Positions 25,535 through 61,005 of a stretch of DNA of 64,000 nt are shown in pieces. Position 1 is the first letter of the stretch, and every line of letters starts with the position of its first letter. Location of the stretch: positions 1 through 64,000 of IMG/VR virus record IMGVR_UViG_3300023048_000001; one strand, written 5' to 3'. The DNA comes from a virus (Duplodnaviria; Caudoviricetes). Below the pieces are notes generated by a model. That model had not been told where the DNA came from. It saw only the letters and a program-made list of their open reading frames with translations, and made no database searches. A program made the translations under genes and the position numbers.

Positions 25535-26502
25535 AGACATATTTACTTGTAGACATGTCTAATATTTTGTATAGAGCATTCTATGCAAATATTAGAGAAG
25601 ATGAAGACATTCTAGTTAGCATGTGCCATCACTCTGGTCTAATGACCATGCAGTATCTAAACAACAAGTATAATCCTGATGAAATCGTTGCAGTATTTGA
25701 CTCCACGTCATGGAGAAAGGCATACACCAAGTATGCCTCCATTAGCCATAAGAAGTACAAAGGAAATAGACGCCAGAACCTTACTGTAAGGCAGCAGGAA
25801 CAGTTGGCAGTCTTTGATAACCACATTGTGGAGTTCTATGAATTCATTAGGGATCATTCATCCTTAATTGTTCTGAAAGCTCCTATGTTAGAATGTGATG
25901 ACCTTGTAGCTGAGTTTATTGACTCTCATCCTGACGATAAACATATCTTGATCAGTACCGATAAAGACTTTATGCAGTTGTTGGATAATAAGAATGTAAC
26001 TTTGATCGAACCTGATAAAGAGAAGCAAAGAACTCTTGATGACTGGAATGGTGACTCAAAGCATTTTATGTTTGAGAAATGCATCCGTGGTGATACATCA
26101 GATAACGTTCAATCTTCTTATCCAAAGATTCGTAAAACTAAGATTGATGAGGCATATACTGATTCATATTTAAGAACTAATCTTATGAATCATGAATTCG
26201 ATGTTGAAGTCCTACAGGATGATGGAACTATGAAAACACATCATTATAAAACTGAAGACCTTTACATTGAAAATATATTGTTGATGGATTTGAGACAGCA
26301 GCCACCAGAAATTAAAAGAACAATGAAGAAGGCTGTAACAAAAGCTCTTAAAGAAAGAGGAACCTTCAATCTCATCCAATTCTATAAATTCTGTGGTAAG
26401 CATGAGCTTGAACGAATTCAGGACAACCCAAAGACCATCACTAAGATGCTTAATACAAGGGCTAAGCCCGAGTTTGGTGATTTAGGTGATATCTTCGGTT
26501 AA
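25531..26502 (+). CDS. rnh: 5'-3' exonuclease / T4 RNase H-like flap nuclease
   Basis: LLVD...YRAF, VFD...WRK, YKGNR, ECDDLVA, STDKDFMQL, GDTSDNV. Confidence 0.9.
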   Translation: MKTYLLVDMSNILYRAFYANIREDEDILVSMCHHSGLMTMQYLNNKYNPDEIVAVFDSTSWRKAYTKYASISHKKYKGNRRQNLTVRQQEQLAVFDNHIVEFYEFIRDHSSLIVLKAPMLECDDLVAEFIDSHPDDKHILISTDKDFMQLLDNKNVTLIEPDKEKQRTLDDWNGDSKHFMFEKCIRGDTSDNVQSSYPKIRKTKIDEAYTDSYLRTNLMNHEFDVEVLQDDGTMKTHHYKTEDLYIENILLMDLRQQPPEIKRTMKKAVTKALKERGTFNLIQFYKFCGKHELERIQDNPKTITKMLNTRAKPEFGDLGDIFG

Positions 26503-28321: not shown

Positions 28322-29719
28322 ATGGATACAAACTCAATTTTCGTACAAATTGCTAGTTACCGTGATCACCAGCTAATCCCAACGCTGCTAGACATGGTAT
28401 CAAAAGCATCATCACCAGAATTACTAAGAGTTACCGTTTGCTGGCAGCATGCCGCTGACGAAACTATTGAAGATTTCGTAGATAATGGATTCGATGTCGT
28501 CTCCACCGATGAAATCCTAGGCGATAAGGTTCATAGCCTAACAGTCAAGGGAGCTAAGGTCGAGTTAATCGACTTGCATTATCTTTCAACTCATGGCGCT
28601 TGCTGGGCACGTAATAAGATTCAGCAGCATTACCAAAATGAGAAATACACCCTACAGCTTGATTCCCACCATAGATTCGTTGAGAAGTGGGATTCTCAAT
28701 TGATTGATATGTTGGAGTCTGTAAGAGACGTAAGTCCGAAGCCTCTATTGACGGCTTACATCCCTTCTTTTGATCCAGAAAATGATCCAGAAGGTCGTGT
28801 ACAGGAACCTTGGAAGATGGACTTTGATCGTTTTATTCCAGAAGGTGCCGTATTCTTCCGTCCATCAACTATTGATGACTGGCGTGAACGTGATAAGCCA
28901 ATGCTTTCCCGCTTCTACAGCGCACACTTTGCCTTCGCTGATGGTTCATTTGCCACTGAAGTACAGCATGATCCAGAATACTTCTTCCATGGTGAAGAGA
29001 TTTCAATCGGTGTTCGTGCATTTACTCATGGCTACGATCTATACCACCCACACCGTACCGTTGCATGGCACGAATATACCCGCAAGGGACGTGTAAAGGT
29101 TTGGGATGACCACACTACCCAGCAGAAAGTAAAGGGTAAGATTAATGAAGATTGGCTAGAAAGAAACAACAGTTGCCATGCACGTAACCGTATTCTTTTC
29201 GGCATGGATGGTCAAGACCCATCACAGATTGATTTTGGTAAGTATGGTTTTGGTACTGTACGTACTGTAAAGCAGTTCGAAGAGTATGCAGGTATGAGCT
29301 TCAAGCTACGTGGTGTTCAGCAGAAGGTTCTAGATAATGTTGAACCAACTCTTGACTACCAGACTTACGAGACTGATGAAGAGTTTAAAGCAACTATTGC
29401 TCGCTCAAATGATATCCGTGTATGTATCCACAAGAATGACGTTACATGGTTTAACCCGGATACCCAGCAGGTAGAGAAGTATCCCGACACCGATTTCGAT
29501 TTCTGGTATGTTGGTGCACATGATGCTGATGGTGTTGAAATCTACCGTAAGGACTTGTCCGAAGGTGAGATTGCTACATACTTAAAGAACGGTGAGTGGA
29601 TCGATTATCGCTTCATCTTTATGTGTGATCCGAATAAAATTGCGAAGACTTATACGGTCCTTCCTCATAGTAAATCTAAGGAATGGCTAGAAAGAATTGT
29701 ACGCTCAGCAGATAGCTGA
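28322..29719 (+). CDS. GT60-family polypeptide alpha-N-acetylglucosaminyltransferase (Gnt1/Gnt2-like)
   Basis: IFVQIASYRD, GACWAR, LQLDSHHRF..WD, FYSAHFAF, HDPEYFFHGEEI..RAFTHGYDLYHP, WHEY are hallmark motifs of the GT60 (Pfam GlcNAc) family. Confidence 0.88.
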   Translation: MDTNSIFVQIASYRDHQLIPTLLDMVSKASSPELLRVTVCWQHAADETIEDFVDNGFDVVSTDEILGDKVHSLTVKGAKVELIDLHYLSTHGACWARNKIQQHYQNEKYTLQLDSHHRFVEKWDSQLIDMLESVRDVSPKPLLTAYIPSFDPENDPEGRVQEPWKMDFDRFIPEGAVFFRPSTIDDWRERDKPMLSRFYSAHFAFADGSFATEVQHDPEYFFHGEEISIGVRAFTHGYDLYHPHRTVAWHEYTRKGRVKVWDDHTTQQKVKGKINEDWLERNNSCHARNRILFGMDGQDPSQIDFGKYGFGTVRTVKQFEEYAGMSFKLRGVQQKVLDNVEPTLDYQTYETDEEFKATIARSNDIRVCIHKNDVTWFNPDTQQVEKYPDTDFDFWYVGAHDADGVEIYRKDLSEGEIATYLKNGEWIDYRFIFMCDPNKIAKTYTVLPHSKSKEWLERIVRSADS

Positions 29720-29726
29720 GCGTCAC

Positions 29727-29758: not shown

Positions 29759-32089
29759 ATGAAAGATAAATTAATCCTATCCGCTTATGGATCACACAAT
29801 GCTGCAATAGCAATGTATTATAAGGGTGAATATAGGGTAATTGAAGTCGAAAGGTGGTTAAATTCCAAGAATATTGGGTTAACCACCTACATGCCGTGTA
29901 AACATCCACAGATTGTTTTCGATGAGATTACTGACTATTTGCTATCTACCACAGATCGCAGCGATGTAGACGTTTTCCTTACTGACTATGTTCAGAGAAT
30001 TACCCCCAAGTTCCATGTAAAAGAAGCTCTAGGCTTCGACCACCATACTGCTCATGCAGCAACTGCATTCTACCAGTCTCCTTACAAGGAGTCTTTGGTG
30101 TTCACGTTTGATGGTGGTGGCGATAATGGGTACTTCAACGTCTACCTTGCAAGCCGCCAGAATGGTATCAAGTTAATTGACAAGTTTGATCAGGATTTGG
30201 GATTCCCATATATGATCATCGGTGATTACTTGAATGATATTAAGAAAGAATCATTAAGTATTGGTAACCTAGTTTATGCAGGAAAGATTATGGGACTATG
30301 TTCCTATGGTCAGATTCATGACGATTGGGTTCCACATTTTGATGAGTTCTATTCGCAGTTCAACTACATTGGTAACTCCTTCATCGGTGGTGCAGAAGCA
30401 CGCTATACTGCATTAACAACATTATTCAAGGCTATTGGTTTTGAAGATTTTGATTTTGAGACCAGTAGATATGAAGGCCAGTTAGCATGGGACATCGCTG
30501 CTACCTCACAAAAGGCTTTTGAAAATCAGTTCTTCAAGTACGCACAGAAATATCTTGATTCATATCCTGATATGCCAGTGTCTATGGCTGGTGGCTGTGC
30601 CCTAAACGTTTTGTTAAATTCAAAACTATTAGCTTTAAGAAATAACAAAGTATTCGTTCCACCTAATGTCAATGACTGTGGTATCGCCTCTGGTGGTCTT
30701 CTCTGGTATTTGAAACCAGATGGTCAGGTTGATCTAACCTATTCTGGAACTCATGTTCTAGATAAGAACCAGTTTGGTACGTTTGTGCAGGAATACGACC
30801 TAGTTGTTCATGAAAACGTAACGGTTGAAGATTTGGCTCAGTACATTGCTGATGGTAACATTGTTGGTATGATTCAGGGTAATTCAGAACATGGTTCTCG
30901 TGCACTTGGAAACCGAAGCATTATTTGTGCACCGGGTGAAGGCATGAAGGATGTATTGAATAATAAGGTGAAGCATCGTGAATGGTATCGCCCATTTGCA
31001 CCTATTGCTCGCCTAGATGATGCATACAAGTACTTTGAAATTGATGAGGGTGTAGAGTCCCGTCACATGGTTTTCGTTGCTAACGTCCGTGAAGAATGGA
31101 GAAGCACACTTCCTGCAATTACGCATGAAGACTTCACCGCCCGTCTTCAGACTGTCACCAAGAGCCAGAACACCTTGATCTATGATCTAATCACCGAATT
31201 TGAAAAGATTACAGGTTATGGCGTTATTTTGAACACTTCGTTCAATGTTGATGGTAAGCCAATCCTAACCCGTTTATCAGATGCATTTAAAATTCTTCGT
31301 GATACTCAGTTGGATGCAGTTTACTTTGAAGGCAAACTGATCATGCGTCATACCAATGACACCTTTAAGAAGACTAAGGAAGAAGCGGTTAAAGTAGCTA
31401 AAACTGACGACACTTCCATCTATGTTCTATCTTTCAAGGAAGATAAGGCTGCAATGGTTCAGGATATGGATAAGATTAAGGAATTGATTCGTGATGGCCG
31501 CAAGATCGGTGTCATGATTCCAGATTACAACTATCCAGTTTATGCTGAGGTTCTACCAGAAAGTGACTCGTTGAAGTATTTCAAGATCGGCAATCGTCAG
31601 CGTTATTATGATAGTCGTTTGATTAAACCATTTAAATTAAAGAAACAGGATGTCGTTGAGTATTCCAGATATATTAAGCTACTTTGGTGTAAGGAAATTT
31701 TACATGCCAACTTGTTTAACACAAAGTATCATCTATATGTAAATCTTGATGAAATGGCAATCCGTGAGTACGCATACAATATTTCTCGTGATGTCGATCT
31801 GCTTTCAATCTTCGCTAAGACTGATGATAATATCATTATCACTTCCAAGAAGAATTTAGGTAGCATTTTCACTCCTGAATATGTTTTGAAGCGTTTCAAT
31901 AAAGAAATTGAGACTTATCCTACAGCAGCATTGTTCTGTGGTAATGATGAGAATCTTGAATGGATGTTCAATAATTACGAGGGTGTATTGTTGTGGTATG
32001 TAGGTATGGATATGTTTGGTGAAGACCATGATTACCTACTCGTCTCGGCAATCGAAAACGAAAGCAGATATAAGTTCTTAGACGCATGA
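29759..32089 (+). CDS. O-carbamoyltransferase (NodU/CmcH/TobZ family) with a C-terminal HtrL-like extension
   Basis: HHTAHAATAF, DGGGD, GKIMGL, AGGCALNV, NDCG, RALGNRSI, KHREWYRPFAP, TARLQTV, LNTSFNVDGKPI; extra ~240 aa with KLLWCKE...NLFNTKYHLYVN. Confidence 0.92.
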   Translation: MKDKLILSAYGSHNAAIAMYYKGEYRVIEVERWLNSKNIGLTTYMPCKHPQIVFDEITDYLLSTTDRSDVDVFLTDYVQRITPKFHVKEALGFDHHTAHAATAFYQSPYKESLVFTFDGGGDNGYFNVYLASRQNGIKLIDKFDQDLGFPYMIIGDYLNDIKKESLSIGNLVYAGKIMGLCSYGQIHDDWVPHFDEFYSQFNYIGNSFIGGAEARYTALTTLFKAIGFEDFDFETSRYEGQLAWDIAATSQKAFENQFFKYAQKYLDSYPDMPVSMAGGCALNVLLNSKLLALRNNKVFVPPNVNDCGIASGGLLWYLKPDGQVDLTYSGTHVLDKNQFGTFVQEYDLVVHENVTVEDLAQYIADGNIVGMIQGNSEHGSRALGNRSIICAPGEGMKDVLNNKVKHREWYRPFAPIARLDDAYKYFEIDEGVESRHMVFVANVREEWRSTLPAITHEDFTARLQTVTKSQNTLIYDLITEFEKITGYGVILNTSFNVDGKPILTRLSDAFKILRDTQLDAVYFEGKLIMRHTNDTFKKTKEEAVKVAKTDDTSIYVLSFKEDKAAMVQDMDKIKELIRDGRKIGVMIPDYNYPVYAEVLPESDSLKYFKIGNRQRYYDSRLIKPFKLKKQDVVEYSRYIKLLWCKEILHANLFNTKYHLYVNLDEMAIREYAYNISRDVDLLSIFAKTDDNIIITSKKNLGSIFTPEYVLKRFNKEIETYPTAALFCGNDENLEWMFNNYEGVLLWYVGMDMFGEDHDYLLVSAIENESRYKFLDA

Positions 32090-32937
32090 AATTCATAACA
32101 GCAATTTTTAACGGGTTACATGGTTCTAAGTTTGGTGGAAGATTGAATAGAGATAGGCACTACACCTACTCTATTCGTACTCTAGCTAATTTAGGACATC
32201 CAATGGTGTGTTACATCGCAACAGATGATATGCCATTTGTACAAGAGTACTTGGCTAAGCATGAAGTAACTAACATTGAGTTTAGAGAATATGATCTTGA
32301 ATCTTTTGAATACCATAAAAAGATTCAAGAGATTAAAGAAATAAACAAAGCGGTATATGCTGAAGACAACGTGTGGGAATATCGTTCAGTTGAACTGATG
32401 TGGTTGAAGTTGTTCTGGTTAAAGCAGGAAGCTGACACTATGGCTGACATGGATAAAGTGTTTTGGATAGATGCTGGATTATCACATGGTGGTATCATGC
32501 CTAAAAAGTATAATGAAAGCCCATTGGATGAATATGAGCAATCATTCCGTAACATTAAGGCTTTCAATCCTAAATTAGCATCTAAGCTTGATAATCTAAC
32601 ACAAGAATCATTGTTTACCTTTTATTGTAACAACAGACAGCATCATTACCCACCACTTTATTCTCATGATAATGTAATGAGCGGTAGTGTTGTGGCAGGG
32701 TTGTTTGGTGGTAGAGTTTCTGATGTGAAGACTCTATTTGAGAAGGGTAAGGAAATTATTGATTATATTGTTACAGAAGACACTCTTCTACAAGAAGAAC
32801 TAATTCTGACATTAGTACATCAACATAATCCGGGACTCTTCCGTGCATTTGATTTTGATACATGGTACCACGAAGACTGGAATTGCTTTGATCCATCAAT
32901 GAAATCATTTAGCGCATTCTTCGAAGGTCTTGCATGA
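32086..32937 (+). CDS. HtrL/YibB-like putative glycosyltransferase
   Basis: FITAIFN...KLFWL...FWIDAGLSH...AGLFGG...EELIL; paralogous to the N-terminus of 33678..35318. Confidence 0.7.
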   Translation: MKFITAIFNGLHGSKFGGRLNRDRHYTYSIRTLANLGHPMVCYIATDDMPFVQEYLAKHEVTNIEFREYDLESFEYHKKIQEIKEINKAVYAEDNVWEYRSVELMWLKLFWLKQEADTMADMDKVFWIDAGLSHGGIMPKKYNESPLDEYEQSFRNIKAFNPKLASKLDNLTQESLFTFYCNNRQHHYPPLYSHDNVMSGSVVAGLFGGRVSDVKTLFEKGKEIIDYIVTEDTLLQEELILTLVHQHNPGLFRAFDFDTWYHEDWNCFDPSMKSFSAFFEGLA

Positions 32938-33665
32938 GTGGCTATGATTGGGATAGCAAGATAGTTTTCGTTACTCTAGCCATTGGCGAAGAGTATCTAG
33001 AAAAGTGTTTGACATTGGTGCAGAGTGTGATGAAATTCACACACTCTGACATCTATATCATGACTGATCTACCCGAGCTAGCCCAATCTCATGCTAACTA
33101 TTATGGTAAGCGCATGAAGATTGTGGATATTCATGAATATCCATTATACACATCACACATCGATGGTAAGTTTAATTATCATTTGAAGTCAGTAGCATTA
33201 TGGTCTGTGTCAAGAATGTGTAGTGAAGTTATGATTTACGTTGATGCTGACACATTCCTCTTCGGATGGGATAGCAGTATTTCCAGATACGTTAATGGAT
33301 TTGAAGAAACTCTTATGTGTCGCTTCAGAGAACGTGTATCAGACAACACCAGCCTCGCTAGATTCGTCCCTAACAAGGCCGCAGCACATGGCGTAGACTT
33401 CCATACTATAGATGCTAGGTTGGCCGTAGAGACCGTTATGGTGCTTACCAGAGGCTCTTTAACTACTGAGTTCCTTCAGGTATGGAAAGACATCACAGAT
33501 TTCTCAATTGAAAATAAAATTGATCCATTTATTGAAGCTTTTGAGCTTGCATTGGCAATTCACAGGAGCAACATGAACACAATAAATGTAAATAACAAGA
33601 CACCGTTCGCAGATAGTTTCAGGACGGTACATAATAATAAACTAATATCTACGAACATAATTTAA
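32934..33665 (+). CDS. GT-A fold putative glycosyltransferase
   Basis: FVTLAIGEEY, YIMTD, FNYHLK, IYVDAD (DxD); ATGA-coupled within the operon. Confidence 0.65.
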   Translation: MSGYDWDSKIVFVTLAIGEEYLEKCLTLVQSVMKFTHSDIYIMTDLPELAQSHANYYGKRMKIVDIHEYPLYTSHIDGKFNYHLKSVALWSVSRMCSEVMIYVDADTFLFGWDSSISRYVNGFEETLMCRFRERVSDNTSLARFVPNKAAAHGVDFHTIDARLAVETVMVLTRGSLTTEFLQVWKDITDFSIENKIDPFIEAFELALAIHRSNMNTINVNNKTPFADSFRTVHNNKLISTNII

Positions 33666-33677
33666 ATTAGGATTGGC

Positions 33678-35318
33678 ATGAGTAAAAATTTAACACTAGT
33701 GACAGCTTTGTTCAATATCGGTCGTGGGGAAATGGACACCGATTTTAAACGTTCATTTGACCATTACATTGAATGTTTTGAAAGACTGTTGAGATTAGAC
33801 TTTCCAATGGTCATTTACATTGAAGCAGCAAATGAACACATTGTTTGGAAGCATAGAAAGCCAGAAAACACCCGAGTCATTCTTAAGACTTTGGAAGATG
33901 TTCGCAACTTTCCATTTAATGATAAAATTCAGAAGATCAGAACTGATAAGAATTGGTACGGTCAGGCTGGCTGGCTAGAGAATAGTACTCAGGCTAGACT
34001 AGAACTATACAATCCAGTTGTCATGAGCAAGCAGTTCATGTTGAATGATGCTTCGCTATTTAATCACTTTGATTCGAAGTATTATATGTGGATCGATGCT
34101 GGCCTATCAAACACTGTAAACATTGAACAGTATTTTGATGCTGAATTTGAGCAGAGAATTACACCACACCTTAAGAAGATGATGTATATTGCATTCCCTT
34201 ATGATGGTCAGGTTGAAGTTCATGGTTTCACCAAGTCAGCAATGAATCGTTTTGCTGGTAAGGATACGGAATACGTTTGCCGTGGTGGCCTATTCGGTGG
34301 TTCTAAGGATGCCATCAATGAGATGAATGACATCTACTACCATACATTGAATGACACGCTAAGCAATGGCTACATGGGTACAGAAGAGAGCATCTTTACC
34401 ATCATGTCATATCAGCACCCTAAGAAGTGTAATATTCAGTTCATTGATGGTAATGGTTTGATCGTCAAGTTCCTAGACGATCTTAAGCAGAACAGAATTG
34501 AAGCTGAGCCAGAGTTCCCACTCGCGTTCTATACGTTGACCTTCAACATTCCAAAGCAGTTTGAAATGTGGGCAGAATCCCTAAAGACAGCGTATCCTCA
34601 GGACTTCGATAAGGTTAAGAAGTACGTCATTGACAACTCAAATGATCCAGACGTTGCCGCCGAGTATTCAGAACTATTCAAAAAGTACAATTGCGAAGTA
34701 TTCAAGTTCGACAACATCGGTATTAATGATGGTCGCCAGTTTGCAGCAGAGCATTTCGACAAGAGTAATCACAAATACATGATCTTCTTCGAAGATGACA
34801 TGCTTATGTTTGAAAATGGTAATAGCCGTTGTGTAAGTGGTTTCACGACATGGCAGGCTGACTTGTTCAACAAGTGCATGGAAATCGTTGAGGATGAAGA
34901 CCTAGATTACTTAAAGCTTGTGTTCTCTGAGTTCTATGGTAATAACCACAATGATTGGGGATTCAAGAATGTCCCATCATCAAAGAGAGAAGAACTCTAT
35001 CCAGATACCGGCGATGCTGATAAGCGTTGGAAGACAAAGATTCATTATACCCATTCGTACAAAGGTCTCCCATATTCTGTAGGTCATTATCACTACTGCA
35101 ACTGGCCTATTTTGTTCACCAAGAGAGGAAACAAGAGAATCTTCTTGGATGATAAGTACGAACATCTTTATGAGCAGAACTGGATGAGTCTAGCCGCACA
35201 GTTCCAGCATGACGGTTCAATGAAGTCCGCTTGTTTGTTGGCAACACCAGTAAATCATTTTAGAAAGTACCATTATAGAGAAGGTACAAGACGAGAAAAT
35301 AAGCATTATAAAAATTAA
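33678..35318 (+). CDS. Two-domain glycosyltransferase: HtrL/YibB N-domain plus GT2-like C-domain
   Basis: LVTALFNIGR...Y...SKQFML...YMWIDAG...GGLFGG...GTEESI; then VIDNS...NIGINDGRQ...IFFEDD. Confidence 0.8.
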   Translation: MSKNLTLVTALFNIGRGEMDTDFKRSFDHYIECFERLLRLDFPMVIYIEAANEHIVWKHRKPENTRVILKTLEDVRNFPFNDKIQKIRTDKNWYGQAGWLENSTQARLELYNPVVMSKQFMLNDASLFNHFDSKYYMWIDAGLSNTVNIEQYFDAEFEQRITPHLKKMMYIAFPYDGQVEVHGFTKSAMNRFAGKDTEYVCRGGLFGGSKDAINEMNDIYYHTLNDTLSNGYMGTEESIFTIMSYQHPKKCNIQFIDGNGLIVKFLDDLKQNRIEAEPEFPLAFYTLTFNIPKQFEMWAESLKTAYPQDFDKVKKYVIDNSNDPDVAAEYSELFKKYNCEVFKFDNIGINDGRQFAAEHFDKSNHKYMIFFEDDMLMFENGNSRCVSGFTTWQADLFNKCMEIVEDEDLDYLKLVFSEFYGNNHNDWGFKNVPSSKREELYPDTGDADKRWKTKIHYTHSYKGLPYSVGHYHYCNWPILFTKRGNKRIFLDDKYEHLYEQNWMSLAAQFQHDGSMKSACLLATPVNHFRKYHYREGTRRENKHYKN

Positions 35319-35321
35319 TGT

Positions 35322-35356
35322 TTGACACTACATTGGGGATCAATTATGATCCCCAA
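35322..35356 (+). promoter_or_regulatory. Sigma70-like promoter overlapped by a 24-bp palindrome
   Basis: TTGACA (35322-27), 17 nt spacer, TATGAT (35345-50); TTGGGGATCA-ATTA-TGATCCCCAA at 35333-35356. Confidence 0.65.
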
Positions 35357-42789: not shown

Positions 42790-43019
42790 GAAGAATGACT
42801 TGGACTGAATTACAAGATAGTGGATTGCTGTGGTGGATCAATAGAATCCTCCACACTTTTGGGGTTGCTATAGTAATTTCTAAAAATGCAGAGGGATTAA
42901 TTGATGGAGTATATCCAGCAGAAGTTGACTTCAGAGGGTTCTCCGAAGAATCTGAAGCCAACGGATATGCAAAGGTGAATACCTTTATTAAACAGAAATT
43001 CGGAGCAACTGATGAATAA
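42786..43019 (+). CDS. Hypothetical protein
   Basis: 77 aa, overlaps both neighbours; GLLWWINRILHTFG...FRGFSE. Confidence 0.6.
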   Translation: MRRMTWTELQDSGLLWWINRILHTFGVAIVISKNAEGLIDGVYPAEVDFRGFSEESEANGYAKVNTFIKQKFGATDE

Positions 43020-44007
43020 TTTTGATTTACAATACACAAATGTAATGAAGCGCGTCATCGACACTGGTGTTGATCGTCCAGACCGTACCGGAATAGGCTC
43101 TAGAGCCATTTGGGGTGCTATGGTAGACGTTGACTTGGCTGATGGTTTCCCGATCCCTACAACGCGAAAGACAACGTTTAGGATCGCTTTTGAGGAAACT
43201 TGGTGGATGCTTCGTGGTGAGACGGACACAAAGAAGCTTGAAGAGAAGAAGATCAATATCTGGAAGGGGAATACGACCAGAGAGTTCCTTGATAATCGTG
43301 GACTACATCGCCTTCCCGAAGGCCACATGGGTAAAGGATACGGGTTTCAGTGGAGAAACTTTGGTGGTAATTATAAAATAGAAAAGATTTATAATTCTTT
43401 CTCTGAAGTTGTAGATGAGAATGGAAACATCCTGATATCAAAAGAAGCATTTGATGAATTCAATGATCCATTCTTTACAAATACCAGATATGATTACACT
43501 AAATCAGATGGTAAAGGTATTGATCAGATAATCAATGTCCTTGAAGGTATGAAGAAAGACCCGAATGGTCGTCGTCATATCATTTCAGGGTGGAATCCAC
43601 AACAGCTTCATGAAATGGCTCTCCCACCATGCCACTTGTACAATCAGTATCAAATCCTTAATGGAAAGCTGAACTCATCCTTCGTGATGCGCTCACATGA
43701 TTGGCTCTATGGTGGTCCATTCAATTTTATGGGATACGCTTTGCTTAATATTGCTTTTGCAAAGTACCTTGGACTTGAACCCGGACATCTAACCTACTTT
43801 GGTAATGATGTTCACATTTATGACAACCAAATTGAAATGGCTAAGGAACAGGTTCTAAGAGACTCATTCGATCTACCAAAGATTGAATTGGTTAAGCCAG
43901 TGAAGACCTTAGATGACTTATTCGGACTACAACATGAGGATTTCGTATTCACAACTGAATATAAAGCTCATCCAGACTTCAAGAATAAGCCTAAAATGGC
44001 AGTTTAA
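43012..44007 (+). CDS. thyA: Thymidylate synthase
   Basis: DRTGIG, YGFQWR, RRHI, ALPPCH, RSHD..GGPFN, DVHIY. Confidence 0.96.
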   Translation: MNNFDLQYTNVMKRVIDTGVDRPDRTGIGSRAIWGAMVDVDLADGFPIPTTRKTTFRIAFEETWWMLRGETDTKKLEEKKINIWKGNTTREFLDNRGLHRLPEGHMGKGYGFQWRNFGGNYKIEKIYNSFSEVVDENGNILISKEAFDEFNDPFFTNTRYDYTKSDGKGIDQIINVLEGMKKDPNGRRHIISGWNPQQLHEMALPPCHLYNQYQILNGKLNSSFVMRSHDWLYGGPFNFMGYALLNIAFAKYLGLEPGHLTYFGNDVHIYDNQIEMAKEQVLRDSFDLPKIELVKPVKTLDDLFGLQHEDFVFTTEYKAHPDFKNKPKMAV

Positions 44008-44034: not shown

Positions 44035-47000
44035 TTATAGGTATTTCTTAATACTGAAGTTATCCCACATATAGACATCACCGGTTCCTATACCCGAGTT
44101 GGTTGAACCACTGGTTAGCGTAGTTGGTGTTAATACCATCGAGAACTGTGTTGCAGAAGATGGGAAGGTAACATAAGTGACAAATGTTCCAGTACCATTT
44201 AAGTTATTGGAAGTAGAATAATATGTATTTGTACCATCACCAATGTTTACATTCAAATACTGAACAGCAGCATTCGTTGCTAGATAATCAAATTGTATTT
44301 TGTAGGTAATGGCTTGAGTGTTTGAGATTGCTCCACTCAATTTTGCTGTTACTGTACCCAATGCCAATGATACTGTGGACACTAATCTACCAGCATTAAT
44401 ACTCAACACACAGTTAGTACCACTGAATGCCGATGGTACTGAACCTGTTGAGAATGTACCATCAGTAACCAATTCTGGACCTGCCGCAGTTAATGTAACT
44501 GATGGTGTTAGCGTTGGTGTCACTGATCGTGTTTGTGTTAATGATGGTGTGATTGATAATGTTGGCGTTACTGTTGGTGTAATCGTTCTGGTCACTGTAA
44601 TTGAAGGTGTTGCGGTTACACTCGGAGTCACTGATTTGGTTGGTGTTACCGATGGTGTGATTGAAATAGTTGGTGAAACTGTTAATGTAGGTGTAACAGT
44701 TGGTGATACCGTCTTGGTAACGCTTGGTGTTACGGTAATTGTACCCGTCACTGATGGGGTCGCTGTCAATGTTGGCGTTGTTGTCAGCGTTGGGCTCATT
44801 GTTGGTGAAAGTGTCAGCGTAGGCGTCACAGCCATTGAAGTGGTTGCAGTAACTGATGGCGTAACTGTTATTGTCTGTGTCACTGTTGGTGATGGTGTTG
44901 GCGTTGGGGTATCGGTCAACGTTGGAGTAACAGTCACACTTGGTGTCACGGTAATCGTTGGTGAAGCTGTCACGGTATTTGTCACTGTTGGCGTGAATGT
45001 CACGCTTGGTGTCATTGAAATAGTGGATGTCAATGTTGGCGTAACAGTTAATGTAGGACTCAATGTAACTGATGGGGTTAATGTGATTGTTGGTGTAATT
45101 GATGCTGTAACTGTTGGTGTTACCGTTACTGATGGTGTAGTAGTGGTGGATGGTGTTGTTGTTACCGATGGAGTCACCGAAATGGTTTGAGTCACTGATG
45201 GTGAAACTGTTGGGGTAGGTGTTGCTGTCATACCTGAAGTGCCAGTAACTGATGGTGTTACTGTATTTGTAGGTGTAAGTGTTGGTGACACGGTTGCAGT
45301 TACAGAAGGCGTCATTGATGCTGTAGTTGAAATTGTTGGTGTGACTGTTGGCGTAGCTGACAATGAGATGGTAGCCGTGACTGATGGTGTCACCGTCACT
45401 GAAGCTGTTGGTGTTGGTGATTCAGTTAATGTTGGTGTAGCAGTCATTGTTGGAGTCAATGTAACGGATGGAGTCACAGAAATTGACTGCGTAACTGTTG
45501 GACTTAAGGTTACCGATGGCGTTGCAGTCATTGATGGCGTCAACGTAACTGATGGCGTAACTGATACTGACTGAGTTTGTGTTGGTGTTGGGGTTACTGC
45601 TGGTGTATCAGTAACGGTAGGTGTCATAGTAACGCTTGGTGTAAGTGTTGGTGAAACTGTTTGTGTAACTGTTGGAGTCATTGATGGAGACACAGTAAGC
45701 GTGGCTGTAGTTGTTGGTGTAGGTGTAACAGCCGGAGTATCTGTCATCGTAGGCGTAACAGTAAATGATGGTGTTACCGTAGTGGATGCGGTTTGTGTTG
45801 GTGTAATTGTAGGTGACGGTGTAGCCGTCACTGAAGGACTTAATGAAACAGTAGCCGTGATAGTTGGTGTAATAGTTGCACTTACTGTCTGTGTAACAGT
45901 TGGAGTTACCGTAGGTGTTATTGTCGTAGTCGTTGTTGGTGTAGGGGTTGGACTATCTGACACTGTAGGTGTAATCGTAGCTGTAACGGATGGTGTTACA
46001 GACGCAGTTTCAGAAATAGTTGGGGTTACAGTCAATGTGGGTGTTGATGAAACTCCCGGAGTATTTGTCACTGTAACTGTAGGCGTCACAGACGCGCTCA
46101 CAGAAGCCGTCTGTGATGGTGTTAATGAGATTGTAGGCGTAACTGTAGAAGTCGCTGTAGGCGTTAGTGAGGCAGTCACAGATATGGTTGGCGTGACTGT
46201 TGCCGTAATAGAACTTGTAACTGATGGTGTTAGTGAGGGGCTGACTGTTGTAGACACGGTAGGAGTTGGAGTTACCGTAGCTGAAGCACTTAATGAAAGG
46301 CTTGGGCTGATGGTAACCGTAGCCGTTACAGTAGGGGTTGGTGATTTAGTTGTAGTTGGCGTATTTGATGGAGCCACCAGCGTACCACTTGGAGCCATCG
46401 TTGGGGTTACTGTCACAGATGGTGTAGCGGTGGTGGTTGGTGTTGGAGTTACAGGGACGTTATCACGAGTCACTTTATAGAATGCCAAATCTTCTATAAA
46501 GTATTGTTTTGTTCTAGCAGCAGGAATCTTATAGTTTGCATCATCAAATAATTTTATAGTTAATGTAAGATTGCTATCAGAAGGCATGTAAAGATAATAA
46601 GAAATTCTTCCACTATCACGGATAGGACAATAGATCATCAAATCTTGTTGTAGATCGGAAATAGAATCACCAAACAAGAAGGGGTTATTTGATGATAATG
46701 TTACGATGGCATATCGACATATACCTTGTTCATAGTCAAACGAGAAATGATAGTAGTTATTACCCGAAACCGGCATATTACTTGCTGTAAAGGTAGGGAA
46801 CTGAGTTTTGTTGGCTGAAGCAGAAATCAACTGAATCTGATTCTTACCATTCTGAAATCCAGTTTTAGTAGTGCCATAAGCTGGAACCCACTGATTAATG
46901 TTTTTGAACCAATTATCTATAGCCATCCAAGTCATTGTAGGAGTCATGGTAGGTGTGGCAGTAGCAGCAGGGGTCTTGGTAGGCTGTCTAGACGGTGTTA

Positions 47001-47196
47001 CCGTGGGTGTTGGTGTACGTGTTACTAGGGATGCAGCAGTCAGATAGGCATTGGTGGTAAGAACAGTGTATGTCTTCCCTTTGGATACTATTACGTATGA
47101 GATTAGAACACCATTTGTATAGTTGATTGATGTGACCGCACCATACATTACAATAGTACCACTTAGAAAATATACAAAATCGCCAATTTTAAACAT
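44035..47196 (-). CDS. Mucin-like virion fibre protein with a ~650-aa PTS stalk and CBM-like tip
   Basis: N-terminal ~250 aa paralogous to 51272..55909 (YYHFSFDYEQGICRY vs YYNFNFDYEQGTMRY); C-terminal ELVTDGTF...WDNFSIK; late promoter at 47220-47227. Confidence 0.8.
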   Translation of the reverse strand: MFKIGDFVYFLSGTIVMYGAVTSINYTNGVLISYVIVSKGKTYTVLTTNAYLTAASLVTRTPTPTVTPSRQPTKTPAATATPTMTPTMTWMAIDNWFKNINQWVPAYGTTKTGFQNGKNQIQLISASANKTQFPTFTASNMPVSGNNYYHFSFDYEQGICRYAIVTLSSNNPFLFGDSISDLQQDLMIYCPIRDSGRISYYLYMPSDSNLTLTIKLFDDANYKIPAARTKQYFIEDLAFYKVTRDNVPVTPTPTTTATPSVTVTPTMAPSGTLVAPSNTPTTTKSPTPTVTATVTISPSLSLSASATVTPTPTVSTTVSPSLTPSVTSSITATVTPTISVTASLTPTATSTVTPTISLTPSQTASVSASVTPTVTVTNTPGVSSTPTLTVTPTISETASVTPSVTATITPTVSDSPTPTPTTTTTITPTVTPTVTQTVSATITPTITATVSLSPSVTATPSPTITPTQTASTTVTPSFTVTPTMTDTPAVTPTPTTTATLTVSPSMTPTVTQTVSPTLTPSVTMTPTVTDTPAVTPTPTQTQSVSVTPSVTLTPSMTATPSVTLSPTVTQSISVTPSVTLTPTMTATPTLTESPTPTASVTVTPSVTATISLSATPTVTPTISTTASMTPSVTATVSPTLTPTNTVTPSVTGTSGMTATPTPTVSPSVTQTISVTPSVTTTPSTTTTPSVTVTPTVTASITPTITLTPSVTLSPTLTVTPTLTSTISMTPSVTFTPTVTNTVTASPTITVTPSVTVTPTLTDTPTPTPSPTVTQTITVTPSVTATTSMAVTPTLTLSPTMSPTLTTTPTLTATPSVTGTITVTPSVTKTVSPTVTPTLTVSPTISITPSVTPTKSVTPSVTATPSITVTRTITPTVTPTLSITPSLTQTRSVTPTLTPSVTLTAAGPELVTDGTFSTGSVPSAFSGTNCVLSINAGRLVSTVSLALGTVTAKLSGAISNTQAITYKIQFDYLATNAAVQYLNVNIGDGTNTYYSTSNNLNGTGTFVTYVTFPSSATQFSMVLTPTTLTSGSTNSGIGTGDVYMWDNFSIKKYL
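44488..46455 (-). repeat. Degenerate coding repeat for ~650 aa of (T/S)-X dipeptides
   Basis: Continuous TPSVT/TPTIT/TATPT tract in the translation. Confidence 0.9.
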
Positions 47197-57042: not shown

Positions 57043-60000
57043 TTAATACGTGATATCAGACTTTATCGTGAATGTGTCATCACCATTGTTGACATAAACA
57101 CGGATCGGAGCAGAAGCACCAGCCGCATAACCCGGAACGTTGAAACCAGCAATCAACATACTACTGTCCTGACTCCAAGATAATGTATCCTGTGTAATAT
57201 ATGTATTGGTTGGAGTTACAGGGTTTGTCAACAAAGTAAATGTATCATTGTTATTATTCTTCAAGATAAGAATGGTATTTGTTGATGTTGCAGATGAACC
57301 TAGGGCCAAATAGTTACCATTTGGTGAGAACATACCTGAAGCTAGCCCATTTGCTGGGATGGTAGGTGTAGATAACTTTGTAAATGTATCATCAAAATTA
57401 TTCTTATAGATGTGCAAGTATGGTGCTGAAGAATTTACAAAAGCCAAGTACTTACTGTCAGCAGACCATGTGCAACCATTTGTTAATCCTGAAGTTGGGA
57501 AGGTTGCCAATACACCAGATAAGCTGGTGAATGTTCCATCACCATTATTCTTATAGATGTTATAATATGGTGAGTTGGCGCTTGAAGTCACAGCCAAGTA
57601 GGTTCCATTTGGAGACCAACCCATACACGCAACAGTATATCCCGGCAATGATGCTGGGATTGCTAGTTTAGTAAAGGATGTACCAGTTCTACTATAGAAA
57701 TTGATGAATGGTGTTCCACCTAAACCGATAGCTAGAATATTATCAGTTGGTGAAAATGCAGATGAATATGCATTAGCAGTCAATGGTACATCAAGATTAG
57801 CTGTGATATCAGTAAAAGTGTCATCGCCATTATTTGTATAGACTAAAATTCTCGGTGTTGTAGTTGTTGAGTTAATAGTAAAGAAGTTACCAGTGAATGA
57901 TCTACTGATAGTATTCTGTGTATTTGCATAATTTGTTGGTCCAGTACCTAGACCACTGAATGATGCTCCATTATTTTTGTAGACAGTGAATTCATGTAGC
58001 GGTGCAGTTGTTCTGTTTTTGTTAGCCATTGCATAATTACTTGAACTGAAACCTACTGAGTTAACAGTCAATGCACCCGGCGTTGCCGTAGGTGTTGGAG
58101 TTTTAGATGGAGTAGGAGTTGGTGAGCTAGTTATAGATGGCGTTACCGTAATCGTAGCTGTAACTGTTGGTGTCACTGGTGCAGTTGTACTGGCTGTGAT
58201 TGTAGGAGTTGGAGTAGGTGTTACTGCTGGTGTTCCAGTTACAGAAGGTGTTGTTGATATTGTAGGTGTGATTGTCTGAGTAACTGGTGGTGTTCCGGTT
58301 ACTGAAGGCGTTGGTGAAATACTTCTGGTAATTGTTGGAGTAAATGTCACCGTTGGTGTTGTAGTTAGTGTAGGTGTTAACGAAATAGTCGTTGAAACTG
58401 TTGGTGTCACTGTTAACGCTGGTGAAAGCGAAACGGTTGCTGTGACTGTTGGTGACATCGTTACAGAAGGTGTTACTGTAATGGTAGGTGTCGTAGTTCT
58501 GGTTGGAGTTACAGACGGAGTGGTTGACACCGATGGTGTTACAGAAGCCGAAGGAGTTCCTGAGATTGTTGCGGTGACAGAAGGAGTAGCTGTCAATGCT
58601 GGTGATAATGAAACCGTTGTGGTCACTGAAGGCGTAGCTGTCAATGTTGGAGTAAATGTTAATGTTGGGGTGACCGTATGTGTAACTGGTGGAGTTCCAG
58701 TAACCGATGGTGTCACCGTAGCGGACGGTGTACCGGTTATCGATGTTGTGATCGAAGGTGTCAGTGAGATGGTTGGAGACACGGTTACCGTAGGTGTAAT
58801 AGTAACACCCGGTGTACCTGACACTGAAGGTGTTGGAGATACAGTTAATGTTGGGGTAGCCGTCACACCAGCAGTTGCAGTAATTGATGGCGTAACTGAG
58901 ATTGTCTGTGTAGGAGTAATCGTTACCGTTGGTGAAGGAGTCAACGATACTGAAGCACTCAATGTGATTGTCGGAGTGACTGATGCAGTTTGAGTAACTG
59001 AAGGTGTTGGCGTTGGAGTTACTGACGGACTCAATGAAACTGTTACACTTGGGGTTATAGTAATTGATTTAGTTACACTAGGTGTAATTGAAACTGTAGC
59101 CGATGGAGTCACAGTCAATGCTGGGGTTGCACTCACTGAAACCGTTGAGGTAACCGTAGGTGTGATGGACACAGTTCTAGTTACTGACGGTGTTATCGAT
59201 GCGGTAACTGTTGGAGTGGCTGTAACAGTATGTGTGGCCGTTGGTGTAGGTGTAAAGGTAATAGCCGGTGATCTGGTTACTGAAGGCGTAATTGATGGTG
59301 TTACTGAAATAGTAGCAGTCATCGTAGGTGTTGAAGTAACTGTCGGTGATGGTGAAATAGATGCTGTAATTGATGGAGTTACAGTTGCACTAGCAGTTTG
59401 TGTTGGTGTGACTGAAGGGGTAGCAGTCAGCGTTGGAGTAGCAGTAACACCCGGTGTGGATGAAACTGAAGGAGAAACAGTTACTGAAGCCGTAATCGTT
59501 GGAGTTACAGTCAATGTTGCAGATGCGGTGATTGATGGGGTTACTGTGGGTGACACCGATGTAGTAGCCGTAACCGAGGGTGTTGGACTATTTGATGCTG
59601 TTACCGATGGCGTAATAGACACCGTTGCACTCACTGAAGGCGTTCTTGACGCTGTAGGGGTTGGTGTAGCCAATCGTGTAGCAGTTGGTGTTTGAGACAG
59701 TGAACGCGTAACTGTAGGCGTTGGTGTAAAGGTTCTTGTCGCTGTTGGTGTATGAGATAGCGAACGGGTAGGCGTAGGAGTTGGTGTGGCACTGTGAGAT
59801 GCCGTTACAGATGGTGTTACAGTAATAGTTGGCGTTACAGTGCGAGTAGCTGTAGCAACCGGAGTTCCAGTTGCATGCGGAGTTCTTGAACTAGTAACTG
59901 TTGGGGTATTTGTTGTAGTCGGTGATGGAGTTACAGTACTTGTTTGAGTAGAGGTGACTGTAGGTGTTGGGCTACTCGATGGAGTAGGCGTATTTGAAAT

Positions 60001-61005
60001 AGTTGGTGTGATGCTAGGTGTGACAGACATCGTTGGTGTGGGAGTTACCGTACCGTGATTGAAATTAACATAATGCTCATTAAAATCGACATAGATGGTA
60101 TTAGGTGATACGATGTATCCAACTTTCTGGAAAGAGAAGTTGACATCGAATTGAGTAGTTAATTCACCATTTCTACCAACAAACAAAGCCGTGTGAACAG
60201 GTTCAGACCAATTCCAATCAGTTCTATTGATGACAAAGCCAACATTATGTAAGGTAACAATTTGTCCAGTAGAAACACTTCTTTCAGCCAAGGCAAATGC
60301 AGGCTGTGATAATTTCTGCTGATCAGCAAGTTCTAATGTATTGTAATTCTTCCAAGTGACGCAGAAATGCTTTGTTATATCTTCTTCTGCAACACCATTT
60401 GCCTGTGTGATTCTCTTATATGTAAAAGAATCCTTGGAATCATTTTTAAATTGGGTGATGGTTGTCTTGTTGTAGAACTCAAATCCACTATCTGTAAATC
60501 TTTTAATTGGATTTGAATTATTGTCTAGCACGATTACATCAGTTACACATGGTTGCAACACGTTAATCTGTGTTCCATTTGCCTGAGTGTTAACTCTTCC
60601 TGAAGCATCAATGGCTGCTGCAATCACACGGATACAATCAATCCAGTACTGCCCATTCCATGTTTTATACTTGAATGTGAATTTATCGAAATACATCTGG
60701 TTTTCGATAGGGTCAGATGGAGCTACCCATGAAAATGGATTTGCGCTAGTGTAACCAAAAGTTAAGGAAGCATCTTCAGTGCTGATATCCCAATATAGCC
60801 AGATAGCTTGACCTGATGGTAAGTCAGACCAAGCATTTGCAGTAGATGTAGATTCAGTGACAAGATAATTAGATGAACCATCTGCGAAGGAAATTAATGT
60901 TGGTGATGTACCAGCATTAAAATCAGCACCACCTGATGTGTTCAAAGTAATGAATCTTGGCAGCTTTTGGCTGTCAATTATTCCTTGTCTAAAATTGATC
61001 TTCAT
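57043..61005 (-). CDS. Mucin-like virion fibre protein: anchor, ~650-aa PTS stalk, C-terminal beta-propeller (1320 aa)
   Basis: N-terminus paralogous to 7823..11122; repeated YKNN.DDTFT...WSPNG.YLA blades. Confidence 0.8.
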   Translation of the reverse strand: MKINFRQGIIDSQKLPRFITLNTSGGADFNAGTSPTLISFADGSSNYLVTESTSTANAWSDLPSGQAIWLYWDISTEDASLTFGYTSANPFSWVAPSDPIENQMYFDKFTFKYKTWNGQYWIDCIRVIAAAIDASGRVNTQANGTQINVLQPCVTDVIVLDNNSNPIKRFTDSGFEFYNKTTITQFKNDSKDSFTYKRITQANGVAEEDITKHFCVTWKNYNTLELADQQKLSQPAFALAERSVSTGQIVTLHNVGFVINRTDWNWSEPVHTALFVGRNGELTTQFDVNFSFQKVGYIVSPNTIYVDFNEHYVNFNHGTVTPTPTMSVTPSITPTISNTPTPSSSPTPTVTSTQTSTVTPSPTTTNTPTVTSSRTPHATGTPVATATRTVTPTITVTPSVTASHSATPTPTPTRSLSHTPTATRTFTPTPTVTRSLSQTPTATRLATPTPTASRTPSVSATVSITPSVTASNSPTPSVTATTSVSPTVTPSITASATLTVTPTITASVTVSPSVSSTPGVTATPTLTATPSVTPTQTASATVTPSITASISPSPTVTSTPTMTATISVTPSITPSVTRSPAITFTPTPTATHTVTATPTVTASITPSVTRTVSITPTVTSTVSVSATPALTVTPSATVSITPSVTKSITITPSVTVSLSPSVTPTPTPSVTQTASVTPTITLSASVSLTPSPTVTITPTQTISVTPSITATAGVTATPTLTVSPTPSVSGTPGVTITPTVTVSPTISLTPSITTSITGTPSATVTPSVTGTPPVTHTVTPTLTFTPTLTATPSVTTTVSLSPALTATPSVTATISGTPSASVTPSVSTTPSVTPTRTTTPTITVTPSVTMSPTVTATVSLSPALTVTPTVSTTISLTPTLTTTPTVTFTPTITRSISPTPSVTGTPPVTQTITPTISTTPSVTGTPAVTPTPTPTITASTTAPVTPTVTATITVTPSITSSPTPTPSKTPTPTATPGALTVNSVGFSSSNYAMANKNRTTAPLHEFTVYKNNGASFSGLGTGPTNYANTQNTISRSFTGNFFTINSTTTTPRILVYTNNGDDTFTDITANLDVPLTANAYSSAFSPTDNILAIGLGGTPFINFYSRTGTSFTKLAIPASLPGYTVACMGWSPNGTYLAVTSSANSPYYNIYKNNGDGTFTSLSGVLATFPTSGLTNGCTWSADSKYLAFVNSSAPYLHIYKNNFDDTFTKLSTPTIPANGLASGMFSPNGNYLALGSSATSTNTILILKNNNNDTFTLLTNPVTPTNTYITQDTLSWSQDSSMLIAGFNVPGYAAGASAPIRVYVNNGDDTFTIKSDITY
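58080..60050 (-). repeat. Degenerate coding repeat for ~650 aa of (T/S)-X dipeptides
   Basis: Continuous PTS tract in the translation. Confidence 0.9.

What the first reader, a model, noticed from the sequence alone, without database searches (positions are those of the whole stretch)
29759..32089. Carbamoyltransferase fused to a degenerate HtrL-like domain: possible carbamoylated virion glycan
Seen: a complete NodU/CmcH enzyme plus ~240 aa that echo the neighbouring HtrL proteins (KLLW..E...NLFNTKY.LYVNLD vs KQFML..A..NHFDSKYYMWIDAG) but lack WIDAG. Established: NodU and NolO O-carbamoylate GlcNAc of Nod factors, and a phage homologue is known to carbamoylate 5-hydroxymethylcytosine. Inference: the fused domain targets the enzyme to the glycan, and carbamoyl caps could block host glycosidases or mimic host glycans. 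DNA modification remains a live alternative.
Basis: partly seen in the sequence, partly recalled or inferred. Interest (0 to 1): 0.7.

Follow-up and report, generated by a model that had tools for sequence, protein, structure and literature searches.

The report
Phage sugar-carbamoylating enzyme with pseudo-glycosyltransferase tail
A giant phage encodes an intact sugar-carbamoylating enzyme fused to a worn-down glycosyltransferase-like domain inside a conserved sugar-adding gene block, so it most likely caps the sugar coat of the phage's own mucin-like proteins, not its DNA; no sugar has been measured.

Summary
ORF 29759-32089 (776 aa) is a complete TobZ/NodU-type O-carbamoyltransferase (residues 1-530), a flexible linker of about 18 residues, and a 228-aa domain. 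That domain folds like HtrL/YibB (GT-A) but has lost most HtrL signature residues, including WIDAG.

The fusion is conserved in XacN1-like jumbo phages. It always sits in a five-gene block: GT60 transferase, the fusion, an HtrL-like gene, a DxD GT-A gene, and an HtrL+GT2 gene.

The DNA-modification alternative is largely excluded:
- The enzyme core groups with cyanophage carbamoyltransferases from sugar clusters, not with the clade linked to dCMP hydroxymethylase.
- It keeps the TobZ-type RALGNRS motif.
- The phage's only thymidylate-synthase homologue is His147/Asn177, the dUMP type.
- One complete relative with the fusion has no such homologue and no TET.
- Published work shows XacN1 DNA is cut by BssHII and NaeI, and its virions carry Schiff-positive glycoproteins.

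The window also encodes several proteins with Thr/Ser/Pro tracts of about 700 residues, which are plausible acceptors.

Best reading: the enzyme O-carbamoylates a phage-made glycan, probably protein-linked. This is inferred, not measured. The role of the degenerate domain is open. This scan had already noted and followed up the same fusion in other jumbo-phage genomes, with the same conclusion.

The parts
29759..31348 (+). O-carbamoyltransferase core (residues 1-530): a Kae1-like domain plus a YrdC-like domain.
   Evidence: Pfam PF02543 and PF16861; PHROG 1601 over the full length. Alignment to TobZ keeps HHTAHAA (95-101), FDGGGD (117-122), NDCGIASG (305-312), GNSEHGSRALGNRS (374-387) and LNTSFN (491-496).
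31349..31402 (+). Charged flexible linker (residues 531-548).
   Evidence: pLDDT is below 50 for the first 14 residues of the domain model and low up to residue 18. This stretch is not conserved among relatives.
31403..32089 (+). Degenerate HtrL-like GT-A domain (residues 549-776) plus the stop codon. Its own invariant residues are G728, E741 and D758.
   Evidence: Fold search, hhalign with controls, Atlas features, loss of HtrL signature residues, invariant columns.
28322..29719 (+). GT60-family glycosyltransferase (PF11397), the first gene of the block.
   Evidence: Pfam E 2.3e-78; PHROG 24687. It holds the same position in XacN1, Xoo-sp13, L006 and L008.
32086..32937 (+). HtrL-like glycosyltransferase with an intact WIDAG. 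Its start overlaps the fusion's stop codon (ATGA).
   Evidence: NCBIfam HtrL_YibB E 5.7e-6; hhalign to the HtrL profile gives 98.5% probability; overlap seen.
32934..33665 (+). Small GT-A-like protein with a DxD motif (VDADTF). It is fast-evolving and absent from the L007 genome.
   Evidence: Sequence; weak DUF1647 hit; 24-31% identity to distant orthologues; missing in L007.
33678..35318 (+). HtrL domain fused to a GT2-like domain, the last gene of the block.
   Evidence: PF09612 E 5.5e-22. Relatives carry PF09612 plus PF00535. A terminator-like hairpin lies at 35333-35356.
44035..47196 (-). Candidate acceptor: a 1053-aa protein with a Thr/Ser/Pro tract of about 700 residues.
   Evidence: Composition ST 0.41, P 0.11; the STP-rich region spans residues 228-935.
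57043..61005 (-). Candidate acceptor: a 1320-aa protein with a Thr/Ser/Pro tract of about 700 residues and a beta-propeller domain.
43012..44007 (+). Thymidylate-synthase homologue of the dUMP type (His147/Asn177). It is relevant as a negative for the DNA route.
   Evidence: PF00303 E 6.8e-75; PPCH...PFN motifs.

Best explanation
The protein is a soluble two-module enzyme. Its N-terminal TobZ/NodU-type module would use ATP and carbamoyl phosphate to make carbamoyl-AMP and transfer the carbamoyl group to a sugar hydroxyl.

Its C-terminal module is a diverged HtrL-type GT-A domain that has lost the family's signature residues. It most likely holds the acceptor glycan or a nucleotide sugar, or docks the enzyme to the glycosylation machinery.

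The enzyme works within a conserved, largely translationally coupled cytoplasmic block. That block starts with a GT60-type transferase and contains three further glycosyltransferase genes. The glycan they build is most likely attached to the phage's own mucin-like Thr/Ser/Pro-rich proteins, and the carbamoyl group caps it.

Shown here: domain identities, fold, intact catalytic motifs, conserved synteny, clade membership, and absence of a hydroxymethyl-pyrimidine route. Inferred: the acceptor, the order of reactions, and the role of the degenerate domain.
For: - The carbamoyltransferase is intact.
- The C-terminal domain has an HtrL/GT-A fold with degenerate signature residues.
- The five-gene block keeps its order in XacN1, Xoo-sp13 and the IMG/VR loci L006 and L008, even where the C-domain is only 22-27% identical; L007 keeps the same order but lacks the DxD GT-A gene.
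- ATGA start-stop overlaps link the fusion to the next two genes.
- No cassette protein has a membrane-like segment.
- The enzyme core is sister (support 100/99) to cyanophage carbamoyltransferases that sit among nucleotide-sugar epimerases, glycosyltransferases and a protein O-fucosyltransferase.
- The core (62-87% identity) and GT60 (60-82%) are more conserved than the DNA polymerase (47-72%).
- Several proteins carry Thr/Ser/Pro tracts of about 700 residues together with lectin-like domains. The TPTVTP coding pattern is enriched in XacN1, Xoo-sp13 and G001.
- XacN1 virions show at least two Schiff-positive glycoprotein bands (PMC5852040).
- In viruses, HtrL domains are repeatedly fused to sugar-tailoring methyltransferases.
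Against: - No glycan or carbamoyl group has been measured on any of these phages.
- The glycoproteins of XacN1 are not identified.
- The mucin-like proteins are not shown to be virion parts or to be glycosylated.
- Characterised members of this enzyme family act on small molecules (tobramycin, Nod factors, cephems, novobiocin), not on protein-linked glycans.
- The complete relative G002 has only one hit to the specific TPTVTP pattern.
- The tree has 14 phage sequences and no cellular references.
Confidence: 0.55

Rival explanations
1. Bifunctional enzyme. The HtrL-like domain is still an active glycosyltransferase using other catalytic residues. It adds a sugar that the fused carbamoyltransferase then caps, as in viral proteins that fuse a glycosyltransferase to a methyltransferase. 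The acceptor class is the same as in the best explanation.
For: The domain keeps its own invariant residues G728, E741 and D758, plus an acidic residue near the HtrL EE position. Some relatives retain Asp at the WIDAG position. The domain has been kept as an open frame across very divergent genomes. Viral fusions of an intact HtrL domain with methyltransferases are common.
Against: Most strongly conserved polar HtrL positions are lost: R88, D140, E180, H182, R202 and the GG of GG.FGG. The WIDAG Asp varies as N/D/S/T. The domain evolves far faster than the enzyme core. There is no Pfam HtrL hit even at E 10.
Confidence: 0.22
2. The block remodels a host surface glycan (LPS core, O-antigen or exopolysaccharide) during infection, for example to block superinfection. 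The carbamoyl group goes on that glycan.
For: HtrL/YibB is named from the E. coli LPS core locus (family descriptions). P. aeruginosa LPS core carries a 7-O-carbamoyl heptose (PMC7168646). A jumbo-phage survey proposed surface-polysaccharide roles for phage glycosyltransferase clusters (PMC7824862).
Against: The cassette has no membrane segments, flippase, polymerase or lipid-carrier enzymes. The lead enzyme belongs to the GT60 family, whose Pfam description is a cytoplasmic protein-glycosylating enzyme acting on Skp1. Mucin-like proteins and virion glycoproteins offer a closer acceptor. The block is conserved across phages whose hosts probably differ (window 39% GC; Xanthomonas and Stenotrophomonas phages).
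Confidence: 0.12
3. The enzyme carbamoylates 5-hydroxymethylcytosine in phage DNA or nucleotides, like the enzyme validated by Yang et al. 2021.
For: It belongs to the same broad enzyme family. The gene lies near replication genes (DNA polymerase, clamp-like protein, RNase H). A thymidylate-synthase homologue lies 11 kb away. The GT2-like domain of the last cassette gene gives a weak TAGT hit (E 0.048).
Against: - The carbamoyltransferases linked to a TS homologue (Xp15, Effie, BF503P1) form a separate long-branched clade (100/100), and the fusion clade lies elsewhere.
- The window enzyme has RALGNRS like TobZ. The validated enzyme and its phage relatives have Thr at TobZ position 423 and mostly Cys at 421.
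- The jumbo-phage TS homologues are His147/Asn177, whereas those beside the other clade have Thr/Asp.
- The complete 340-kb relative G002 keeps the fusion but has no PF00303 and no TET/JBP match. No TET/JBP match was found in five genomes.
- XacN1 DNA was mapped with BssHII, NaeI and SpeI (PMC5852040).
- In the MetaGPA study, carbamoyltransferases flanked by glycosyltransferases were on unmodified contigs.
Confidence: 0.04
4. The cassette makes a free carbamoylated small molecule (an oligosaccharide signal or secondary metabolite) rather than decorating a macromolecule.
For: All characterised family members act on small molecules (PDB titles). A survey proposed secondary-metabolite roles for cyanophage carbamoyltransferase clusters (PMC7824862).
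Against: No scaffold-building, export or nucleotide-sugar synthesis genes were found in the block. The lead enzyme is GT60. Mucin-like proteins co-occur with the block.
Confidence: 0.07

Closest known systems
TobZ (PDB 3VEN), NodU/NolO, CmcH, NovN and GdmN O-carbamoyltransferases
   Same: The two-domain core has all the conserved motifs: HxxxH, the two Asp motifs, the G..E.G.RALG.RS loop and LNTSFN. The expected chemistry therefore goes through carbamoyl-AMP.
   Different: This protein carries an extra 246-aa HtrL-like domain. It is encoded by a phage inside a glycosyltransferase block. The likely acceptor is a glycan built by that block, not an antibiotic or Nod factor. The NodU equivalog score is far below its cut-off (176 against 1000 bits).
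Cyanophage 'Nol-like' carbamoyltransferases (S-SCSM1, Bellamy)
   Same: These are the nearest unfused relatives (36-39% identity, sister clade with support 100/99). They also sit in sugar-metabolism and glycosyltransferase clusters.
   Different: They have no C-terminal HtrL-like domain, their neighbours differ, and their function is likewise untested.
5-hydroxymethylcytosine carbamoyltransferase (Yang et al., eLife 2021, PMC8670742)
   Same: It belongs to the same enzyme superfamily, is phage-encoded and uses the same cofactors.
   Different: It lies in a different clade, differs at the residues tied to DNA modification, is linked to an Asp177 dCMP hydroxymethylase, and has no GT-like domain.
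HtrL/YibB family (PF09612) and viral fusions of HtrL with methyltransferases
   Same: The GT-A-type fold is the same, and the architecture follows the same logic of an HtrL domain joined to a sugar-tailoring enzyme.
   Different: Here the HtrL signature is degenerate and undetected by the Pfam model. The partner enzyme is a carbamoyltransferase rather than a methyltransferase.
XacN1 ORF333 / Xoo-sp13 gp303, annotated 'carbamoyl transferase'
   Same: These are full-length orthologues (about 50% identity overall) in the same gene block.
   Different: The published annotation mentions neither the fused domain nor a function. The XacN1 paper lists only two glycosyltransferases.

Membership tests
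NodU/CmcH/TobZ O-carbamoyltransferases (PF02543 + PF16861) | Both Pfam domains score above their gathering cut-offs. | tested here: met
   87.7 bits (cut-off 24) and 193.9 bits (cut-off 27).
NodU/CmcH/TobZ O-carbamoyltransferases (PF02543 + PF16861) | Metal-binding HxxxH and Asp motifs of the Kae1-like domain, and the carbamoyl-phosphate/ATP loop of the YrdC-like domain. | tested here: met
   The alignment to TobZ keeps HHTAHAA, FDGGGD, NDCGIASG, GNSEHGSRALGNRS, WYRPFAP and LNTSFN.
NodU/CmcH/TobZ O-carbamoyltransferases (PF02543 + PF16861) | ATP- and carbamoyl-phosphate-dependent O-carbamoylation activity. | not testable with these tools
   This needs an enzyme assay.
NodU proper (NCBIfam NF041651 equivalog) | Score above the equivalog cut-off. 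| tested here: not met
   176 bits against a cut-off of 1000.
5hmC carbamoyltransferase (eLife 2021) | Linkage to a thymidylate-synthase homologue with Asp at position 177 (dCMP hydroxymethylase). | tested here: not met
   The only TS homologue is His147/Asn177 and lies 11 kb away. The complete relative G002 has none.
5hmC carbamoyltransferase (eLife 2021) | Residues at TobZ positions 421 and 423 as in the validated enzyme. | tested here: not met
   The window has Gly/Arg as in TobZ. The validated enzyme and its Xp15, Effie and BF503P1 relatives have Thr at 423 and mostly Cys at 421.
5hmC carbamoyltransferase (eLife 2021) | Membership of the same clade. | tested here: not met
   The clades are separate, split with 100/100 support. 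Only phage sequences were sampled.
HtrL_YibB (PF09612) | A match to the family model. | tested here: not met
   No hit at E up to 10.
HtrL_YibB (PF09612) | Same fold. | tested here: met
   All eight Atlas family sets carry PF09612, with TM by query 0.67-0.78.
HtrL_YibB (PF09612) | Signature residues (WIDAG, GG.FGG, EE, and the conserved Arg, His and Glu). | tested here: not met
   Most are replaced. Retained are the Lys of the K..F block, the second Gly of FGG, and some aromatic residues.
HtrL_YibB (PF09612) | Profile-profile homology. | tested here: inconclusive
   Probability 48-64% and E about 1e-4, above the shuffled controls. Only 15% probability against the family of the neighbouring 283-aa gene.
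GT-A glycosyltransferases with a DxD motif | A conserved metal-binding DxD. | tested here: not met
   The aligned position varies N/D/S/T, and the position two residues downstream (+2) is not conserved.

The most novel reading that the evidence does not exclude
Jumbo phages coat their own mucin-like fibre proteins with an O-glycan capped by a carbamoyl group. The capping enzyme is steered by a pseudo-glycosyltransferase domain that has been recruited as a glycan- or nucleotide-sugar-binding module. This would be the first carbamoylated protein-linked glycan known in any virus, and a new use for a dead GT-A domain.
Probability: 0.35. Interest if true: 0.7.

Novelty: new variant of a known kind. 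Interest (0 to 1): 0.55.

Why it matters
Virion glycosylation in phages is known from only a few cases. Carbamoyl caps on protein-linked glycans are, to my knowledge, undescribed.

If this holds, it adds a new glycan modification to phage surfaces, with possible effects on adsorption, stability and recognition. It also extends the substrate range of a well-studied enzyme family, and gives an example of a degenerate glycosyltransferase domain reused as a targeting module.

There is a practical point as well. A phage carbamoyltransferase should not be read as a DNA-modification marker unless the Asp177 hydroxymethylase linkage and the diagnostic residues are present.

XacN1, Xoo-sp13, RAS14 and CM1 are cultured, so the idea can be tested directly.

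Tried and rejected
- Folding the full-length protein from a single sequence gave pLDDT 32 and was unusable.
- Pairwise BLAST of the C-terminal domain against the neighbouring genes found nothing significant.
- The tool's own hhalign on untrimmed alignments (A2 against A3) aligned only the last 59 columns, with probability 5.6%. I used trimmed alignments instead.
- Complex prediction of the C-domain with the downstream HtrL-like protein gave no verdict. This is not evidence either way.
- A megablast of the gene against the phage collection gave no match.
- A PDB sequence search with the GT60 protein gave no match.
- I recalled that phage RAS14 might carry 5cmdC, but found no paper to support it, so I make no such claim.
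- The Cell Reports 2024 paper on DNA glycosyltransferases is not held in the library.
- The weak TAGT hit of the last cassette gene (E 0.048) is read as general GT-A likeness, because relatives carry GT2.
- XacN1 ORF325, next to the cassette, is not mucin-like in the part I examined.

Full report
**What the window is.** The window is the first 64 kb of a 174.6-kb IMG/VR virus record, estimated about 50% complete. Its family-B DNA polymerase, clamp-like protein and RNase H genes, and its gene order, match the XacN1-like jumbo phages of Xanthomonas and Stenotrophomonas.

**The gene.** ORF 29759-32089 encodes 776 aa.
- Residues 1-530 are a complete O-carbamoyltransferase. Pfam finds Carbam_trans_N and Carbam_trans_C. 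PHROG 1601 matches end to end. TobZ is the best solved relative, E 7e-44.
- The TobZ alignment keeps the metal-binding HxxxH and Asp motifs and the carbamoyl-phosphate/ATP loop, so the enzyme looks active.
- Residues 531-548 form a charged, poorly predicted linker.
- Residues 549-776 form a compact alpha/beta domain.

**Is the tail HtrL-like?** Pairwise comparison with the neighbouring genes shows nothing, and Pfam is silent even at E 10. Three other lines agree, though.
- Profile-profile alignment to an HtrL family profile built from 69 sequences is colinear over about 200 columns. It gives E 7e-5 to 2e-4 and probability 48-64%. Twenty column-shuffled controls and a reversed control all score clearly lower.
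- Language-model features place it beside HtrL_YibB clusters.
- An AlphaFold model built on a 16-row alignment (pLDDT 86) finds only HtrL-bearing clusters in the ESM Atlas, with TM 0.67-0.78. In the PDB it finds GT-A fold GT6 transferases.

About 55 positions are at least 85% conserved in HtrL, and most of the polar ones are replaced. The WIDAG Asp is Asn662 here and varies N/D/S/T in relatives. The domain has its own invariant residues: G728, E741 and D758.

The domain family is tiny. It has 12 hits among 1.84 billion representative proteins. At least five of these (one full-length protein and four fragments) also carry carbamoyltransferase sequence.

**Context.** The fusion sits in a block of five genes:
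- a GT60 transferase (PF11397, E 2e-78);
- the fusion;
- an HtrL-like gene with WIDAG;
- a small DxD GT-A gene;
- an HtrL+GT2 gene.

The order is the same in XacN1, Xoo-sp13 and IMG/VR loci L006 and L008. It holds even where the tail domain is only 22-27% identical. One relative, L007, lacks the DxD gene. The fusion and the next two genes are joined by ATGA overlaps. A terminator-like hairpin follows the last gene. None of the proteins has a membrane-like segment. The enzyme core and GT60 are more conserved than the DNA polymerase. The tail domain and the two small GT genes evolve fast.

**Glycan or DNA?** I retrieved phage relatives of the validated 5hmC carbamoyltransferase using a 77-residue stretch printed in the paper. 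These are Xp15, Acinetobacter phage Effie and Bacteroides phage BF503P1.
- Their enzymes are unfused. They lie within about 1.5 kb of a thymidylate-synthase homologue that carries Asp at position 177 and Thr at 147.
- In a maximum-likelihood tree they form a long separate branch (100/100). The seven fusions are monophyletic (96/97). The fusions are sister (100/99) to cyanophage enzymes that lie among nucleotide-sugar epimerases, glycosyltransferases and a protein O-fucosyltransferase.
- At the positions the MetaGPA study tied to DNA modification, the fusions read RALGNRS like TobZ. The other clade has Thr at 423 and mostly Cys at 421.
- The single TS homologue of the window, XacN1, Xoo-sp13 and G001 is His147/Asn177.
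- The complete 340-kb relative G002 keeps the fusion but has no TS-family match and no TET/JBP match. No TET/JBP match was found in any of the five genomes searched.
[quoted passage not shown] It also detected at least two Schiff-positive virion proteins (PMC5852040).

Together these make DNA carbamoylation unlikely.

**Likely acceptor.** The window encodes several very large proteins with Thr/Ser/Pro tracts of up to about 700 residues. They also carry LamG, discoidin or beta-propeller domains. The TPTVTP coding pattern occurs 12-15 times in XacN1, Xoo-sp13 and G001, against 0-1 for the control pattern. It occurs only once in G002. The Pfam description of PF11397 names the cytoplasmic enzyme that glycosylates Skp1. 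From general knowledge, other GT60 members start mucin-type chains in protists. This makes the mucin-like proteins the most economical acceptors. It remains inference.

**Mechanism and open points.** I commit to O-carbamoylation of a sugar in the cassette's glycan, with the degenerate GT-A module acting as a binding or docking domain (confidence 0.55). The main variant is that the tail is still an active transferase (0.22). Host-surface glycan remodelling (0.12), a free small molecule (0.07) and DNA modification (0.04) follow. A complex prediction between the tail domain and the next gene's product gave no verdict.

**Earlier notes of this scan.** Other readers and one follow-up agent described the same fusion in other jumbo-phage genomes and reached the same reading. 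I treated these as leads. The mucin-tract lead was checked here. The fusion reading was re-derived independently. New evidence added here is the G002 gene-content argument, the tree against the TS-linked clade, and the evolutionary rate contrast.

Noticed in passing
window 43012-44007 (+): The thymidylate-synthase homologue has an unusual RSHDWLYGGPFN active-site stretch and about 40 extra residues (123-159) that do not align to the solved enzymes. It is of the Asn177 type, but whether it is a plain synthase or a dUMP hydroxymethylase was not resolved.
   Followed up: partly
window 44035-47196 (-), 57043-61005 (-), 1835-7480 (+), 51272-55909 (-), 11122-12177 (+): A family of giant proteins carries Thr/Ser/Pro tracts of up to about 700 residues together with LamG, discoidin or beta-propeller domains. 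These tracts cause the strong GC-skew peaks at 44-46 kb and 58-60 kb.
   Followed up: partly
window 18198-18647 (+): A TnsA-like endonuclease N-terminal domain (PF08722, E 8.5e-24) lies in a 149-aa protein upstream of the replication genes.
   Followed up: no
window 20691-21311 (+): There is a weak 2OG-Fe(II) oxygenase hit (PF13640, E 6e-4, below the cut-off). Its catalytic residues were not checked here.
   Followed up: no
window 37714-38553 (+): A 279-aa protein has a C-terminal peptidyl-tRNA hydrolase PTH2 domain (E 2.7e-5).
   Followed up: no
window 25531-26502 (+): The 5'-3' exonuclease (RNase H-like) has a weak HU-type DNA-binding hit at its C-terminus (PF00216, E 0.005).
   Followed up: no
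window 29701-29723 and 35333-35356: A perfect 9-bp-stem hairpin overlaps the GT60 stop codon, with no T-run on the + strand. A 10-bp-stem terminator-like hairpin lies just after the last cassette gene.
   Followed up: no
L007 10736-13337 (genome G002): In this complete 340-kb relative the small DxD GT-A gene is missing from the cassette. The genome also has no thymidylate-synthase family gene.
   Followed up: partly
L016 3915-5486 (Ralstonia phage RsoM2USA): Another jumbo phage carries an unfused carbamoyltransferase with RALGNRS that branches at the base of the sugar-type clade. All its neighbours are annotated as hypothetical proteins.
   Followed up: no
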